Assembly (NCBI RefSeq): GCF_017348835.2
Contig: NZ_CP071375.1
Reading direction: 5' to 3' (one strand)
Length of the DNA stretch: 64,000 nucleotides
Source of the DNA: Escherichia coli
GTDB lineage: Bacteria > Pseudomonadota > Gammaproteobacteria > Enterobacterales > Enterobacteriaceae
Numbering within the stretch: position 1 is the first letter of the stretch; the number at the start of each line of letters is the position of its first letter. Below are positions 1 to 5,494 of the stretch, one piece after another. The translations under genes were made by a program, and so were the position numbers. Below the pieces are notes generated by a model that saw only the letters and a program-made list of their open reading frames with translations, did no database searches and was not told the DNA's origin.

Positions 1-14
1 AAGGTGTACGTCAG

Positions 15-215
15 TTGCCTGCTGAGAGATGTCCTGCGATTGAACGAGCAACAAAAGGTGGTGTCCTGTGTGAAGAACTTCGTCCTGATGTTGATTGGAC
101 ATACTTACGACGCTCGTCATGTTATTCGCAGAATATGTCGATGAAGCAACCAAATGACGAAAACGATCATACCCGAAGCATCAAGAGGCAAATGATTCAT
201 GAAAATCAAACATGA
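15..215 (+). CDS. Hypothetical protein, probably 5'-truncated by the window edge (frame open to position 3)
   Basis: ORF open to the window start. Ends 17 nt inside the YdaT-like ORF. No recognisable motif. Confidence 0.2.
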   Translation: MPAERCPAIERATKGGVLCEELRPDVDWTYLRRSSCYSQNMSMKQPNDENDHTRSIKRQMIHENQT

Positions 216-624
216 GCACATCCGCATGGCGATGAATGCCTGGGCATATCCTGATGGTGAGAAAGTTCCGGCAGCTGGAATAACCCAGGCTTATTTTGAG
301 TTGGGTATGACGTTCCCAGAACTGTATGACGACAGCCATCCGGAAGCCCTGGCTCGCAATACCCAGAAAATTTTCCGCTGGGTAGAGAAAGACACCCCTG
401 ATGCAGTTGAAAAAATTCAGGCGTTGTTACCAGCGATCGAAAAGGCAATGCCACCTTTGCTGGTGGCCAGAATGCGCAGCCACAGTTCAGCTTATTTTCG
501 GGAGCTGGTGGAGACGCGGGAGCGACTGGTGAGAGACGCTGATGATTTTGTCGCAGTGGCAATCGCCGGTTTCAATCAGATGAACCGTGGTGGCCCGGCA
601 GGAAATGCTGTGGCAGTGCATTGA
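199..624 (+). CDS. YdaT-like protein (Rac prophage ydaT family; putative toxin-like/regulatory)
   Basis: 141 aa. N-terminus MKIKHEHI... matches my recollection of Rac YdaT. Sits just upstream of the replication gene, as ydaS/ydaT do in Rac. Confidence 0.5.
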   Translation: MKIKHEHIRMAMNAWAYPDGEKVPAAGITQAYFELGMTFPELYDDSHPEALARNTQKIFRWVEKDTPDAVEKIQALLPAIEKAMPPLLVARMRSHSSAYFRELVETRERLVRDADDFVAVAIAGFNQMNRGGPAGNAVAVH

Positions 625-689
625 GTGATAATAGCCATATCGAATCGCTTCCGGCAACTCGTGAGTAAAAAGATTCGGTATCAGAAGAG

Positions 690-2519
690 GTGAGTATGGC
701 TAACGCCTGGCTCAGATTATGGCATGACATGCCAAATGACCCTAAGTGGCGAACAATTGCCAGGGTGTCAGGGCAGCCAATTGCAACAGTGATGGCAGTG
801 TATATCCACCTCCTGGTGAGCGCGTCACGAAATGTCACGCGAGGTCACATTGATGTCACGACAGAAGATTTGGCAAGTGCGCTCGACGTGACAGAAGAGG
901 TAATTGATTCAATTTTGCAGACGATGCAGGGGCGGGTACTTGATGGTGATTTAATCACTGGATGGGAAAAACGCCAGGTGCTTAAAGAGGACAACGGCAA
1001 TATTTCGCAAACCGCAAAATCTCCTGCAGAGCGCAAGAGGGCGCAGCGAGAGAGGGAAAGAAAGCGGGAACAAAATGGCGATTGTCACGGCGCGTCACGA
1101 AATGTCACGCACATGTCACGACGAGTCACGACAGATAAAGATACAGATAAAGATACAGATCAAGAAGATCAAAACACTATGGTCCATGGCGTAAAAAACG
1201 CCACGAACCAGGCAGGGGATGTTCAGACCGTCAACCCTGGTCAGCCAGCAGGCACGACACCGGAAGCCGATTCAGCGTATGCGCTGAAAGCCGATTCGGG
1301 CGCTGTGCAGCAGGTGATGACCGCAAGGCCGGAGCAATCACACCAACTGCAGCAGCCCGAAGCCGATTCCGCCATTCAGCGGGAAGCCGATCGGGTAGTC
1401 CCGGAAAACACCGGGCAGTCTGTGGGACGAGTGGATTATCCGGATGTGTTCGAACAGGTCTGGCGGGAATACCCGTTGCGTGCTGGGGCAAACCCGAAGA
1501 AATCCGCTTTCAGTGCCTGGAAGGCCAGATTACGCGAGGGGGTGCCACCAGAGGCCATACTGGATGGTGTGAGGCGTTACGCAAGATACCTGGCGGCTAC
1601 CGGGAAAACGGGAACGGAATTTGTTCAGCGAGCGACGACGTTTTTTGGGCCGGACCGGAATTTTGAAAACCCCTGGTTGCTCCCGGTAAGCGGCACGAAC
1701 AACCAGCGTTGTGTGAATCATATTTCTGAACCGGATACCGAAATTCCGCCGGGATTCAGGGGGGGATGTGGCATGAAAAACATTGCGGCAGCCGGGGTTC
1801 TTGAACGTATTCGCAGACTTGCACCACAGGCGTCGGTTCCACCGTACCGGACGGTGGAGGAGTGGCGGGAATGGCAACTTGTTGAAGGACGAAAACGCAG
1901 CGAGGAGATTAACCGCCAGAATCACCAGTTGCGGGTGGAAAAAATCCTGAATCGTTCGGGCATCCAGCCTCTGCACAGCAAATGCTCGTTTGCGAATTAT
2001 CAGGTGCAGAACGACGGGCAAAAATACGCGCTGAGCCAGGCCAAATCCATAGCTGACGAACTGATGACCGGGTGCACGAATTTTGTGTTCAGCGGTAAAA
2101 CCGGCACCGGGAAAAATCACCTTGCAGCGGCGATGGGTAACCGGCTGATGGCGAAGGGGCGCAGCGTGATTATTGTCACCGTGTCTGATGTCATGAGCGT
2201 GTTGCATGACAGCTACGACAACGGCAAATCCGGGGAAAAATTTTTACAGGAGCTTTGCAGTGTTGATTTGCTGGTCCTGGATGAAATAGGCGTTCAGCGG
2301 GAGACGAAAAACGAGCAGGTGGTATTACACCAGATAATTGATCGCCGGACAGCATCACTGTGCAGTGTCGGGATGTTAACAAACCTGAATCATGCCGCAA
2401 TGAGTACACTTCTTGGTGAGAGGATTATGGACCGCATGACCATGAACGGTGGTCGATGGGTGACGTTTAACTGGGATAGCTGGCGTCCAAATGTCAGCAA
2501 TATGAGGGTTGTGAAGTAA
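690..2519 (+). CDS. Phage replication protein: O-like initiator N-terminal part fused in-frame to a DnaC/IstB-like helicase-loader ATPase (C-terminal ~250 aa)
   Basis: 609-aa single ORF. The C-terminal part has Walker A (FSGKTGTGKNHLAAAMG) and Walker B (LLVLDEIG) motifs typical of DnaC-like loaders. An internal Met (1773) is preceded by a G-rich RBS. Iteron-like repeats lie inside the N-terminal coding part. Confidence 0.7.
   Translation: MSMANAWLRLWHDMPNDPKWRTIARVSGQPIATVMAVYIHLLVSASRNVTRGHIDVTTEDLASALDVTEEVIDSILQTMQGRVLDGDLITGWEKRQVLKEDNGNISQTAKSPAERKRAQRERERKREQNGDCHGASRNVTHMSRRVTTDKDTDKDTDQEDQNTMVHGVKNATNQAGDVQTVNPGQPAGTTPEADSAYALKADSGAVQQVMTARPEQSHQLQQPEADSAIQREADRVVPENTGQSVGRVDYPDVFEQVWREYPLRAGANPKKSAFSAWKARLREGVPPEAILDGVRRYARYLAATGKTGTEFVQRATTFFGPDRNFENPWLLPVSGTNNQRCVNHISEPDTEIPPGFRGGCGMKNIAAAGVLERIRRLAPQASVPPYRTVEEWREWQLVEGRKRSEEINRQNHQLRVEKILNRSGIQPLHSKCSFANYQVQNDGQKYALSQAKSIADELMTGCTNFVFSGKTGTGKNHLAAAMGNRLMAKGRSVIIVTVSDVMSVLHDSYDNGKSGEKFLQELCSVDLLVLDEIGVQRETKNEQVVLHQIIDRRTASLCSVGMLTNLNHAAMSTLLGERIMDRMTMNGGRWVTFNWDSWRPNVSNMRVVK
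823..1170. repeat. Iteron-like repeats (two ~40-bp GTCACG-rich units, 823-862 and 1088-1130) followed by an AT-rich GATAAAGATACA tandem; putative phage ori inside the initiator gene
   Basis: gcgtcacgaaatgtcacgc...tgtcacgac appears twice, ~265 bp apart. An (gataaagataca)x2 tract follows at 1134-1160. This is an architecture like lambda ori inside O. Confidence 0.5.
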
Positions 2520-2540
2520 TTTTGTCCGGAGGAAATTTTA

Positions 2541-3302
2541 ATGGAAACCGTATCTGACGCACTGAAAGCACTGAAAAAAGCCTCTTCACATGTGGTGGCA
2601 GCTCGCCTTGGAATCAGTCGTGAAGAGGCTGTCAACGAGCTGTGGGAACTCAAAAGAAATGGCGTCGTTGATAAAACTGGTCACACCTGGTTTCTGGCTG
2701 GCGAAGGTGAATCCCGGGTAACCGAAGAGCGGCCAGTAAAATCTGAAGCACAGGATATGCTGACCGGGGAGGTCGAACAAAAAGTTACCGCAGACATGAT
2801 GATTGAGTTTATCGGTCAGGATGGGGCTAAAACGTGTGAGGAACTGGCGGGTAAGTTCGGTGTCAGTACTCGCAAGGTTGCTTCCACGCTGGCGGTGGTA
2901 ACCGCAACGGGGCGGCTGGCACGCGTTAATCAGAACGGTAAATTTCGTTACTGCATGCCGGGCGATAATTTACCAGCAGAGCCGAAAGCCGCGCTGGTAA
3001 CGGAAAGTGATGGTAAGGCCTTTCCTCAGCCAGCAGGTGCTGCGTTACCAGTCCGGGAAGCCGCAACACAGGAAGAAATTAAAACAGAAACTGTGGCGGA
3101 CATTGTGCAGCCGTTGCCATCGTTTACCGAAACGCAAGCAGATGAGCTGATTTTTCCGTCCCTTCGCAGGGCAAACCTGGCGCTGCGCAGGGCGAAAAGT
3201 GATGTTCAGAAGTGGGAGCGAGTCTGCGCCGCGCTGCGGGAGCTGAACAAGTGCCGGGATATTCTCCGGGATATTACCGCCACCAGAGAACAGCAGCGGT
3301 GA
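2541..3302 (+). CDS. Hypothetical phage early protein with two winged-helix-like segments (DUF1627-like?)
   Basis: 253-aa ORF with an RBS (ggagg) 7 nt upstream. Position downstream of replication genes is as in Stx/lambdoid phages. Confidence 0.5.
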   Translation: METVSDALKALKKASSHVVAARLGISREEAVNELWELKRNGVVDKTGHTWFLAGEGESRVTEERPVKSEAQDMLTGEVEQKVTADMMIEFIGQDGAKTCEELAGKFGVSTRKVASTLAVVTATGRLARVNQNGKFRYCMPGDNLPAEPKAALVTESDGKAFPQPAGAALPVREAATQEEIKTETVADIVQPLPSFTETQADELIFPSLRRANLALRRAKSDVQKWERVCAALRELNKCRDILRDITATREQQR

Positions 3303-3334
3303 GTGGGTGGAAGACGTGGTGCCGGGCGGAAATC

Positions 3335-3616
3335 ATGATACTCCGGCAGTGTGCGGGAACGAGGAAGGTAAAAAGCGTTGGCGCACTTATCGGACGAACT
3401 GAAGCGGCAGTGAGAACGAAGGCACGGGAGCTGGGCATCAGCATGATGTTACGTGGTGATTTTCACCCGTCGGCAAAATATTCTCAGCGTGATATTGAGC
3501 TGGCGCGGCAACTGCATCAGAGAGGCATGCAAAGAAGGGAAATTGCCAGAAAATTAGGCATGCCGCTGCGCATAGTGAATAACTACGTTTATTTCGACAG
3601 GAGGGTGTCTGCGTGA
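3335..3616 (+). CDS. Small HTH-domain protein
   Basis: 94 aa from ATG 3335 (the longer ORF starts at 3212). Two HTH-like segments (VGALIGRTEAAVRTKA; RREIARKLGMPLRIV). Confidence 0.4.
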   Translation: MILRQCAGTRKVKSVGALIGRTEAAVRTKARELGISMMLRGDFHPSAKYSQRDIELARQLHQRGMQRREIARKLGMPLRIVNNYVYFDRRVSA

Positions 3617-3840
3617 AAATCCTGTATCAGGATTACGGCCCGGTGGGGCAGGTGGTTATCAGCAGTACTGTAATGGAGTTTCGGAAGCATAACCGTGTGG
3701 TGGATGCTGTGCTGTTAACCTGTCCGGGGATATCGGCGAGTCGTGCAGGTGTGTTTATTATGAAGACGAAATTATATGGCAGTAAGGCGTGGATAAAGAA
3801 GGCGTATCGTGTAGCGTTGCAGGAGGTTAACAGTGAGTGA
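3613..3840 (+). CDS. Hypothetical nin-region protein
   Basis: 75-aa ORF whose start overlaps the upstream stop (GTGA/ATGA-type coupling). Confidence 0.35.
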   Translation: MKILYQDYGPVGQVVISSTVMEFRKHNRVVDAVLLTCPGISASRAGVFIMKTKLYGSKAWIKKAYRVALQEVNSE

Positions 3841-4168
3841 AATTAAAGAAATGCCGGTAGTTCGTGACGGATATGGCAACTGGACACATCCTGAATATGA
3901 AAAATTCTGTGATGGTCGGGAATATATTTCAACGGAAGAGTTTAACGCCTGGATGGAGGAAAATAATCTTCAATACGTCCTCTGCTTCAGAGATGAAGGA
4001 TGTGCTGACCTTGATGCGTGTGATGCTGATATTTCTGCATGGGAACCGGAACGACCAGAGGGCGATGGCTGGTTTATTGGTTCCATTCATGATACGGAAG
4101 ATGGCCCGGTTGTGTCTGGTTGCGAAATAAGGCTGAAGCATAAAGGCGATAAACCAACTAACAACTAA
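3833..4168 (+). CDS. Hypothetical nin-region protein
   Basis: 111-aa ORF overlapping the upstream stop. Acidic C-terminus. Confidence 0.4.
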   Translation: MSEIKEMPVVRDGYGNWTHPEYEKFCDGREYISTEEFNAWMEENNLQYVLCFRDEGCADLDACDADISAWEPERPEGDGWFIGSIHDTEDGPVVSGCEIRLKHKGDKPTNN

Positions 4169-5281: not shown

Positions 5282-5494
5282 ATGCTGAACACATGTAGGT
5301 TAGCCTCTTACGTGCCGAAAGGCAAGGAGAAGCAGGCTATGAAGCAGCAAAAGGCGATGTTAATCGCCCTGATCGTCATCTGTTTAACCGTCATAGTGAC
5401 GGCACTGGTAACGAGGAAAGACCTCTGCGAGGTGCGAATCCGAACCGGTCAGACGGAGGTCGCTGTCTTCGTAGACTACGAATCTGAGAAGTAA
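5282..5494 (+). CDS. Mok-like overlapping reading frame of the hok locus
   Basis: 70-aa frame reading through hok, as mok does in hok/sok loci. Confidence 0.5.
   Translation: MLNTCRLASYVPKGKEKQAMKQQKAMLIALIVICLTVIVTALVTRKDLCEVRIRTGQTEVAVFVDYESEK
5339..5494 (+). CDS. hok: Hok/Gef family type I toxin (HokD/RelF-like)
   Basis: 51 aa: MKQQKAMLIALIVICLTVIVTALVTRKDLCEVRIRTGQTEVAVFVDYESEK. This is near-identical to Hok-family toxins as I remember them. Confidence 0.85.
   Translation: MKQQKAMLIALIVICLTVIVTALVTRKDLCEVRIRTGQTEVAVFVDYESEK

What the first reader, a model, noticed from the sequence alone, without database searches (positions are those of the whole stretch)
690..2519. Replication initiator and DnaC-like helicase loader encoded as one 609-aa reading frame
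Lambdoid prophages normally have separate O-like and P/DnaC-like genes (for example ydaU/ydaV in Rac). Here there is no stop between the initiator-like N-terminal part, which contains the iterons, and a complete DnaC/IstB-like ATPase. A good internal start exists (GGGGGGAT RBS + ATG 1773, MKNIAAAG…), so the loader may also be made separately. A genuine fusion, or a long in-frame read-through, would be unusual.
Basis: seen in the sequence. Interest (0 to 1): 0.5.

Follow-up and report, generated by a model that had tools for sequence, protein, structure and literature searches.

The report
Stop-codon loss fuses two replication genes
The long reading frame is real, but it exists only because one base change (TGA to GGA) removed the stop codon between a prophage's ordinary replication-initiator gene and its ordinary helicase-loader gene; about 99% of related prophages keep the two genes separate.

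Summary
Window 690-2519 is one open frame of 609 aa from GTG 690; the likelier start is ATG 696, giving 607 aa. The N-terminal 356 aa are a full-length phage replication initiator / replisome organizer with iterons inside its own gene. The C-terminal 248 aa are a full-length YdaV/DnaC-like AAA+ loader with its own Shine-Dalgarno and ATG at 1773. The fusion is not an architecture of this family. Codon 1764-1766 is GGA here and TGA in otherwise identical prophages. Stop, 6-nt spacer and loader ATG share one frame, so a single T-to-G change joins the genes. Among complete E. coli genomes, 4 carry the exact G 90-mer and 522 the T one. In IMG/VR, 155 of 156 junctions have a stop, and in metagenomes 5 of 5. 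No protein-cluster representative spans the junction. RefSeq already annotates carriers as a pseudogene plus a separate loader. The allele is probably not a sequencing error, because it is seen in several independent assemblies and travels with linked SNPs. It appears on at least three haplotype backgrounds, which suggests a mutational hotspot in the run GGGGG-T-G. Verdict: an ordinary two-gene Rac-like replication module carrying a rare stop-loss allele. Interest is low.

The parts
696..1763 (+). Replication initiator / replisome organizer coding sequence (356 codons). In relatives this is a stand-alone gene ending in ...IPPGFRG-stop.
   Evidence: phrog_3729 'replication initiation protein' matches 1-356 of a 356-position profile, E=1.9e-257. 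PGAP calls it 'phage replisome organizer' or 'hypothetical protein' of 356 aa in relatives. The 90% cluster representative P0001 is 356 aa.
824..892 (.). First iteron cluster: three direct GTCACG copies, a GTCACA variant, and one inverted copy at 887-892.
1084..1130 (.). Second iteron cluster: five direct GTCACG copies with start-to-start spacings of 10, 10, 11 and 10 nt.
1131..1199 (.). AT-rich stretch next to the iterons (ACAGATAAAGAT x2 and following). It is a candidate DNA-unwinding element of an origin lying inside the initiator gene.
   Evidence: GC is 0.35-0.38 in the 60-nt windows at 1110-1199, against 0.5-0.63 around them. Direct repeat D7. The origin function is inferred by analogy with lambda ori.
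1759..1767 (+). Shine-Dalgarno of the loader gene, formed by the last organizer codons (AGG GGG) plus the former stop codon.
   Evidence: Duplex with the 16S 3' end is -16.8 kcal/mol for the TGA version and -12.8 for the window's GGA version. The distance to the ATG is invariant in relatives.
1764..1766 (+). GGA codon where relatives have the organizer's TGA stop. Base 1764 (G here, T in relatives) is the only difference from 88_1577 in the 90 nt aligned around the junction, and it creates the fused frame.
   Evidence: Alignment A1. 4 vs 522 genomes. 1 vs 45 IMG/VR contigs.
1767..1772 (+). Former 6-nt intergenic spacer TGTGGC, now translated as Cys-Gly to link the two proteins.
1773..2519 (+). 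YdaV/DnaC-like AAA+ helicase-loader gene (248 aa), complete and with its own start.
   Evidence: NF009043 matches 1-248 of 248, 507.7 bits against a cutoff of 389. PF01695 IstB_IS21 E=1.9e-18. 80% identical over 248 aa to K-12 YdaV. PGAP annotates it separately as WP_000788759.1 even in stop-loss carriers.

Best explanation
This is the replication module of a Rac-like lambdoid prophage, in the order ydaS-like, ydaT-like, initiator/organizer, DnaC-like loader, DUF1627. In its normal form the module has two genes. The 356-aa initiator binds the GTCACG iterons that lie inside its own coding sequence. The 248-aa AAA+ loader is translated from an SD made of the initiator's last codons, 9 nt upstream of its ATG. 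In the window a single T-to-G substitution at 1764 turned the initiator's TGA stop into GGA. Because stop, 6-nt spacer and loader ATG share one frame, ribosomes starting at ATG 696 now run on and make a 607-aa initiator-Gly-Cys-Gly-loader chain. The loader's own SD and ATG remain, so free loader can probably still be made. Free initiator with its conserved C-terminal ...IPPGFRG end can no longer be made. The allele is a real, inherited, rare variant (about 1% or less) and is best read as a neutral or degenerative change in a repressed prophage, not an evolved fusion architecture. Shown: the substitution, its rarity, its presence in several assemblies, and the completeness of both halves. Inferred: the protein products, the origin function, and the loss or retention of activity.
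For: One-base difference at the junction from strain 88_1577. The exact G 90-mer is in 4 complete E. coli genomes and the T 90-mer in 522. IMG/VR has 45 TGA and 1 GGA for this junction, and 155 of 156 stops over the wider junction family. Metagenomes have 5/5 TGA. Both halves match full-length stand-alone family profiles end to end. No cluster representative covers more than 62% of the fused protein or more than 52% of a junction-spanning query. PGAP annotates carriers as 'phage replisome organizer, incomplete, missing C-terminus' plus a separate ATP-binding protein. The allele is real: the window is not PE164 (13 mismatches + 1 gap over 27.4 kb, and an IS3 element is absent) yet shares G; the exact 607-aa product is called on 4 NCBI contigs; G carriers share linked alleles 134T/3159T/4254C against the T carriers 95_0274 and 88_1577 (4254 is covered only in 95_0274), and they span two sub-haplotypes. 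The loader SD is retained. Rac ydaU/ydaV has the same stop + 6 nt + ATG layout.
Against: No expression or protein data exist, so I cannot show which products are made. The T-to-G change after a G run matches the best-known Illumina systematic error motif (GGT read as GGG; PMC3295828), and such errors recur at the same sites, so agreement between assemblies is weaker evidence than it looks. One T carrier (L035) shares 134T, so the linked-SNP argument is not clean. Recurrence on at least 3 backgrounds is unexpected for a purely neutral mutation and could instead mean selection.
Confidence: 0.8

Rival explanations
1. Sequencing or assembly artefact: the true base at 1764 is T, and the G is a base-calling or polishing error in the G-rich context GGGGG-T-G.
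For: The strongest Illumina systematic error is T called as G after GG, and it recurs at the same sites between runs (PMC3295828). The G allele is sporadic: 4 of 526 exact-context complete genomes. It appears on backgrounds whose sister sequences are identical except for this base. Strain War is a single assembly.
Against: The allele is present in at least five separate sequence records of the window's lineage: the window, PE164, GCA_910593615.1, GCA_032490275.1 and IMG/VR L027. Those records carry two sub-haplotypes differing at 7 or more other sites, and all of them have G. SMN013SH2 (USA) and OkiPb01679 (Japan) share it, while three genomes with the same remnant have T, two of them from the same SMN strain series. 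A strongly systematic error should affect far more than about 1% of assemblies with the identical context.
Confidence: 0.08
2. Adaptive fusion: the stop loss was selected, either because a single-chain initiator-loader works (fixed 1:1 stoichiometry) or because it disables or poisons prophage replication initiation to the host's benefit.
For: The same substitution occurs on at least three haplotype backgrounds whose nearest relatives differ by 0-1 other bases per 1-6 kb. GGA is the only non-stop codon seen at this position. Carriers include decayed prophages, namely a remnant lacking an intact integrase and ydaS and IS-disrupted PE164, where silencing an origin could be useful. The allele has persisted long enough to accumulate linked diversity.
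Against: Frequency stays at or below about 1% everywhere sampled. No lineage shows the fusion fixed across real divergence. In War the organizer also carries a frameshift, which points to decay rather than function. A mutational hotspot, where T becomes the same base as both neighbours inside a G run, explains the recurrence without selection. Any of many loss-of-function mutations would serve a silencing purpose, so selection alone does not explain why this site.
Confidence: 0.1
3. Programmed recoding: the family naturally makes some initiator-loader fusion by stop-codon read-through, and the window simply hard-wires it.
For: Stop, a spacer free of in-frame stops, and the ATG are in one frame in all 156 junctions recovered. 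No other spacing between 3 and 30 nt was found.
Against: The invariant 9-nt distance is explained more simply by SD-to-ATG spacing, because the GGGGG of the last codons is the loader's SD. Both TGA and the efficient terminator TAA are used. There is no read-through signal or evidence, and the window has no stop left to read through.
Confidence: 0.02

Closest known systems
Rac cryptic prophage ydaU-ydaV (E. coli K-12, b1359-b1360), within racR-ydaS-ydaT-ydaU-ydaV-ydaW
   Same: The gene order is the same, and racR, ydaS-like and ydaT-like genes lie upstream in carrier genomes. The loader is 80% identical to YdaV over all 248 aa. The junction grammar is identical...CCxGGxTTCAGGGGG-stop-6 nt-ATGAAAAAYATTGC, same frame. 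The initiators share the C-terminal tail IPPGFRG.
   Different: Rac keeps its stop (TAA). YdaU (285 aa, DUF1376) is otherwise unrelated in sequence to the window's 356-aa initiator, and only the last 19 residues align.
Bacteriophage lambda O / P with ori-lambda inside the O gene
   Same: The working logic is the same (from established knowledge): an initiator gene directly followed by a helicase-delivery gene, and iterons plus an AT-rich stretch inside the initiator's own coding sequence.
   Different: No sequence similarity to O was detected. The partner here is an AAA+ DnaC/IstB-type ATPase, whereas lambda P is not (established knowledge). The iterons are short GTCACG units at 10-11 nt phase.
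E. coli dnaT-dnaC operon
   Same: A DnaC-type loader gene lies immediately downstream of a gene whose product ends in ...SEPDxxIPPGFRG. The organizer's residues 333-356 align to the last 24 residues of DnaT (NF002770 and PDB 6aep/2ru8/9zbt). The paper (PMC13377028) notes that dnaT and dnaC lie in one operon and interact genetically.
   Different: Only the tail is shared: the NF002770 score is 18.1 against a cutoff of 201. The PF17948 DnaT DNA-binding domain, present in sister organizers such as P0014, is absent from this one. The loader scores below the DnaC equivalog cutoff (297.7 vs 357).
SPP1 G38P-type replisome organizers (Pfam PF09681 Phage_rep_org_N)
   Same: PGAP names the protein 'phage replisome organizer'. 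There is a weak end-to-end match of residues 5-122 to PF09681 positions 1-118 of 121, and phrog_4880 and phrog_5968 'replisome organizer' hit the N-terminal 160 aa.
   Different: The PF09681 score of 12.8 is below the 23.3 cutoff, so membership is not established by sequence.

Membership tests
DnaC/IstB-like AAA+ helicase loaders (YdaV subfamily, NCBIfam NF009043) | Full-length match above the curated cutoff | tested here: met
   NF009043 matches 1-248 of 248, 507.7 bits against a cutoff of 389. PF01695 scores 67.3 against a cutoff of 24.1.
DnaC/IstB-like AAA+ helicase loaders (YdaV subfamily, NCBIfam NF009043) | Walker A and Walker B motifs intact | tested here: met
   GKTGTGKNH and LLVLDEIG can be read in the translation. 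They align with YdaV's GKPGTGKNH and LLVLDEIG.
Bona fide DnaC (NCBIfam NF005931 equivalog) | Score above the equivalog cutoff | tested here: not met
   297.7 bits against a cutoff of 357. It is a DnaC-like paralog, not DnaC.
Phage replication initiator / replisome organizer (phrog_3729; PGAP 'phage replisome organizer') | End-to-end similarity to the family, which ends at residue 356 | tested here: met
   phrog_3729 matches 1-356 of 356, E=1.9e-257. Cluster representative P0001 is 356 aa and 99% identical.
Phage replication initiator / replisome organizer (phrog_3729; PGAP 'phage replisome organizer') | Binds iterons and initiates replication at an origin within its gene | not testable with these tools
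   Iteron arrays and an AT-rich stretch are present. Binding and initiation are inferred.
Pfam PF09681 Phage_rep_org_N | Score above the gathering threshold | tested here: not met
   12.8 bits against 23.3, E=0.13, although the alignment runs end to end.
Natural (evolved) initiator-loader gene fusion | Fused frame conserved among homologs | tested here: not met
   4 vs 522 complete genomes. 155/156 IMG/VR junctions and 5/5 metagenome junctions have a stop. No representative protein spans the junction.
Programmed stop-codon read-through / recoding | A stop codon that is decoded | tested here: not met
   The window has GGA, a sense codon, at 1764-1766.
Stop-loss allele / pseudogene of a two-gene operon | Single substitution in the stop codon relative to otherwise identical relatives | tested here: met
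   In the 90-nt alignment around the junction, only base 1764 differs from 88_1577, and apart from that base there are 0 differences over 1059 nt of flank. Over the whole 1-4100 overlap there are 3 mismatches including the junction. PGAP flags the carriers as a pseudogene.

The most novel reading that the evidence does not exclude
The T-to-G stop loss has arisen at least three separate times and has persisted. This could mean the single-chain initiator-loader is functional, or is a selected dominant-negative brake on prophage origin firing. That would be a natural experiment in covalently tethering an origin-binding initiator to its AAA+ helicase loader.
Probability: 0.05. Interest if true: 0.5.

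Novelty: already known. Interest (0 to 1): 0.15.

Why it matters
It matters little for biology as it stands. Both genes, their order and the module are well known, and RefSeq already treats this allele as a pseudogene. There are three practical points. First, gene callers that report the 607-aa ORF create a false 'fusion' protein; in the large protein collection it sits in one 90% cluster together with stand-alone organizers and loaders. Second, this module family is always one base away from an in-frame fusion, because the loader's SD lies in the initiator's last codons at a fixed 9-nt distance. Third, the repeated T-to-G change in GGGGG-T-G is a small example of either a mutational hotspot or a systematic base-calling trap. 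Either way it is a useful caution when stop-loss 'fusions' are scored as novel architectures.

Tried and rejected
1. Genuine fusion architecture: rejected by the homolog counts and by two searches of the 5.8-billion-protein collection, one with the whole fusion and one with a junction-spanning query. No representative spans the junction.

2. The window is simply strain PE164, which would leave the allele with only one independent observation: rejected.

3. A single origin of the G allele: rejected for War and for the SMN013SH2/OkiPb01679 remnant, whose closest relatives carry T and differ by one mismatch. L027, which I first counted as a separate event, was reassigned to the window's lineage.

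4. A DnaT-like ssDNA-binding domain (PF17948) in the C-terminal half of this organizer: rejected. The similarity to P0014 is N-terminal only, and only the last ~24 residues resemble DnaT.

5. The GTDB representative genomes gave no exact junction match, so nothing was learned there.

6. Other SD-to-ATG spacings in the family (3-8 and 10-30 nt): none found.

7. The literature search for the role of the DnaT C-terminal tail gave no direct answer.

Full report
**1. Observation**

The mechanical ORF list shows 690..2519 on the + strand, 609 aa from GTG, uninterrupted, and the sequence was read directly.

The real start is more likely ATG 696, giving 607 aa:
- PGAP and the public gene calls start there.
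- The upstream GAGGTGA pairs with the 16S 3' end at -11.7 kcal/mol.
- GTG 690 sits inside that SD and has only -5.5 kcal/mol upstream of it.

**2. What the two halves are**

Residues 1-356 (ATG numbering) match phrog_3729 'replication initiation protein' over all 356 profile positions, E=1.9e-257. PGAP names the same protein 'phage replisome organizer' or 'hypothetical protein'. Sequence evidence for older curated families is weak. PF09681 aligns end to end but scores 12.8 bits against a cutoff of 23.3.

The protein is a mosaic:
- Its N-terminal 144 aa are 87% identical to organizers that carry a PF17948 DnaT domain (P0014).
- Its C-terminal half is a different module without that domain.
- Its last ~24 residues (SEPDTEIPPGFRG) resemble the C-termini of DnaT and of Rac YdaU.

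Residues 360-607 are a complete AAA+ loader:
- NF009043 matches 1-248 of 248 at 507.7 bits against a cutoff of 389.
- PF01695 IstB_IS21 matches.
- It is 80% identical to K-12 YdaV.
- It scores below the true-DnaC cutoff.

The iteron claim holds. Nine of the 44 GTCACG hexamers in 64 kb lie in 824-1130, where shuffles predict about 0.14. Five are at 10-11 nt phase in 1084-1130, followed by a 35-38% GC stretch. This is the lambda-like 'origin inside the initiator gene' layout. Function is inferred.

The neighbours fit a Rac-like early-right operon. A YdaT-family gene lies upstream and a DUF1627 gene downstream. racR and a ydaS-like gene lie upstream in carrier genomes.

**3. Why the frame is continuous**

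In the 90 nt aligned around the junction, the window differs from E. coli 88_1577 at a single base: window 1764 is G and the relative has T. So codon 1764-1766 is GGA instead of the organizer's TGA stop. Apart from that base there are no differences over 1059 nt of flank.

The normal junction reads ...TTC AGG GGG TGA TGT GGC ATG AAA... The stop, the 6-nt spacer and the loader ATG are in one frame, so losing the stop gives initiator-Gly-Cys-Gly-loader.

K-12 Rac has the same grammar with TAA. The GGGGG of the last organizer codons is the loader's SD. That explains why the distance to the ATG is fixed. In IMG/VR every junction of this family has exactly stop + 6 nt, across 10 stop-plus-spacer sequence variants, and none has 3-8 or 10-30 nt. 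The in-frame relation is therefore a by-product of SD spacing.

**4. How common the fused form is**

| Collection | Stop (TGA/TAA) | GGA |
|---|---|---|
| Complete E. coli genomes, exact 90-mer | 522 | 4 (PE164, SMN013SH2, War, OkiPb01679) |
| IMG/VR, this junction | 45 | 1 |
| IMG/VR, wider junction family | 155 | 1 |
| Metagenome contigs | 5 | 0 |

- GGA is the only non-stop codon seen at this position.
- In the 5.8-billion-protein collection no cluster representative covers more than 62% of the fusion.
- No representative covers more than 52% of a query spanning only the junction. Every hit is one-sided.
- The exact 607-aa product is on record on just 4 NCBI contigs.
- PGAP annotates carriers as 'phage replisome organizer; incomplete; missing C-terminus' (pseudogene) plus a normal ATP-binding protein.

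**5. Real allele or error?**

The context (T after a run of G, miscalled as G) is the classic Illumina systematic error (PMC3295828), so I tested this rival.

*Evidence for a real allele*
- The window is not PE164. It has 13 mismatches and 1 gap over 27.4 kb and lacks the IS3 in the tape-measure gene. Both still carry G.
- GCA_910593615.1, GCA_032490275.1 and IMG/VR L027 carry it too.
- A SNP table over 8.5 kb shows that these G carriers fall into two sub-haplotypes differing at 7 or more sites. All share 134T, 3159T and 4254C against the T carriers 95_0274 and 88_1577 (4254 is covered only in 95_0274). This indicates inheritance through some divergence.
- SMN013SH2 (USA) and OkiPb01679 (Japan) share G in an identical prophage remnant next to tRNA-Ser/mtfA. 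Three genomes with the same remnant have T.

*Caveats*
- One T carrier (L035) also has 134T.
- War is a single assembly.

I put the artefact at about 8%.

**6. Recurrence**

The G allele sits on at least three backgrounds whose closest relatives carry T and differ by one mismatch, which is the junction base itself:
- The window lineage: the closest T carrier, 88_1577, shows no other difference within 1059 nt of flank, though 3 mismatches including the junction over 4.1 kb.
- War: 1 mismatch in 6090 nt against L044, plus gaps.
- The tRNA-Ser remnant: 1 mismatch in 3301 nt.

The substitution turns T into the base that flanks it on both sides within GGGGG-T-G. A misalignment-type hotspot is a sufficient explanation, but that is inference. 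Gene conversion between co-resident prophages, or selection, cannot be excluded.

**7. Likely consequences (inferred)**

- Translation from ATG 696 yields the 607-aa chain.
- The loader's SD is weakened but still strong (-16.8 to -12.8 kcal/mol), so free loader is probably still made.
- Free initiator with its conserved C-terminal tail is lost.
- Relatives carry other flagged defects: the portal and a small ORF are frameshifted, and PE164 has IS3 insertions. In War the organizer also has a frameshift.
- In the window itself the portal-like region is split into two ORFs in different frames.
- The simplest reading is a neutral or degenerative stop-loss in a repressed, partly decayed prophage.

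**8. Comparison and verdict**

The module works like lambda O/P and is a homolog of Rac ydaU/ydaV in its loader and junction. Its initiator belongs to a different, mosaic organizer family. Nothing here is a new kind of system, and the fused frame is a rare allele already flagged in RefSeq. Interest is low (0.15). The only mildly unusual point is the recurrent T-to-G change.

Noticed in passing
window 1722-1763 (organizer residues ~343-356): The C-terminal tail SEPDTEIPPGFRG is shared with the C-terminus of E. coli DnaT (PDB 6aep, 2ru8, 9zbt) and with Rac YdaU, although the proteins are otherwise unrelated. All three genes sit directly upstream of a DnaC-type gene. Either the tail is a loader- or helicase-contact motif, or it is conserved at the DNA level because its last codons are the downstream SD.
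   Followed up: partly
protein collection, cluster of P0001: One 90%-identity cluster of 5,786 members holds 356-aa organizers, 248-aa loaders and the 607-aa fusion. The stop-loss ORF appears to chain two unrelated families into one cluster.
   Followed up: no
window 22352-23052: A 162-nt tandem repeat, 4.3 copies at 97% identity, lies inside the portal-like region. That region is split into two ORFs in different frames (20775-22139 and 22136-23521). PGAP flags the portal as frameshifted in relatives with and without the stop loss.
   Followed up: partly
window 3833-4168: A small ORF is annotated 'frameshifted' by PGAP in every close relative examined (PE164, 88_1577, 95_0274). It may be a shared old defect or a model artefact.
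   Followed up: no
window 1764, and L003/L005, L004: The identical T-to-G change occurs on at least three haplotype backgrounds, and GGA is the only non-stop codon seen at this site. This points to a hotspot, gene conversion between co-resident prophages, or the Illumina GGT-to-GGG error motif.
   Followed up: partly
window ~8752-9004 and ~5339-5494: By colinearity with strain 95_0274, the prophage carries tRNA-Ile and tRNA-Arg genes downstream of the antiterminator, and a hok/gef family toxin gene.
   Followed up: no
L003 / L005 (SMN013SH2, OkiPb01679), locus 751-1496: This second carrier lineage is a prophage remnant beside tRNA-Ser/mtfA, with a truncated integrase and a ydaS-like gene missing its N-terminus. 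The replication module there has lost its normal upstream regulatory region.
   Followed up: no
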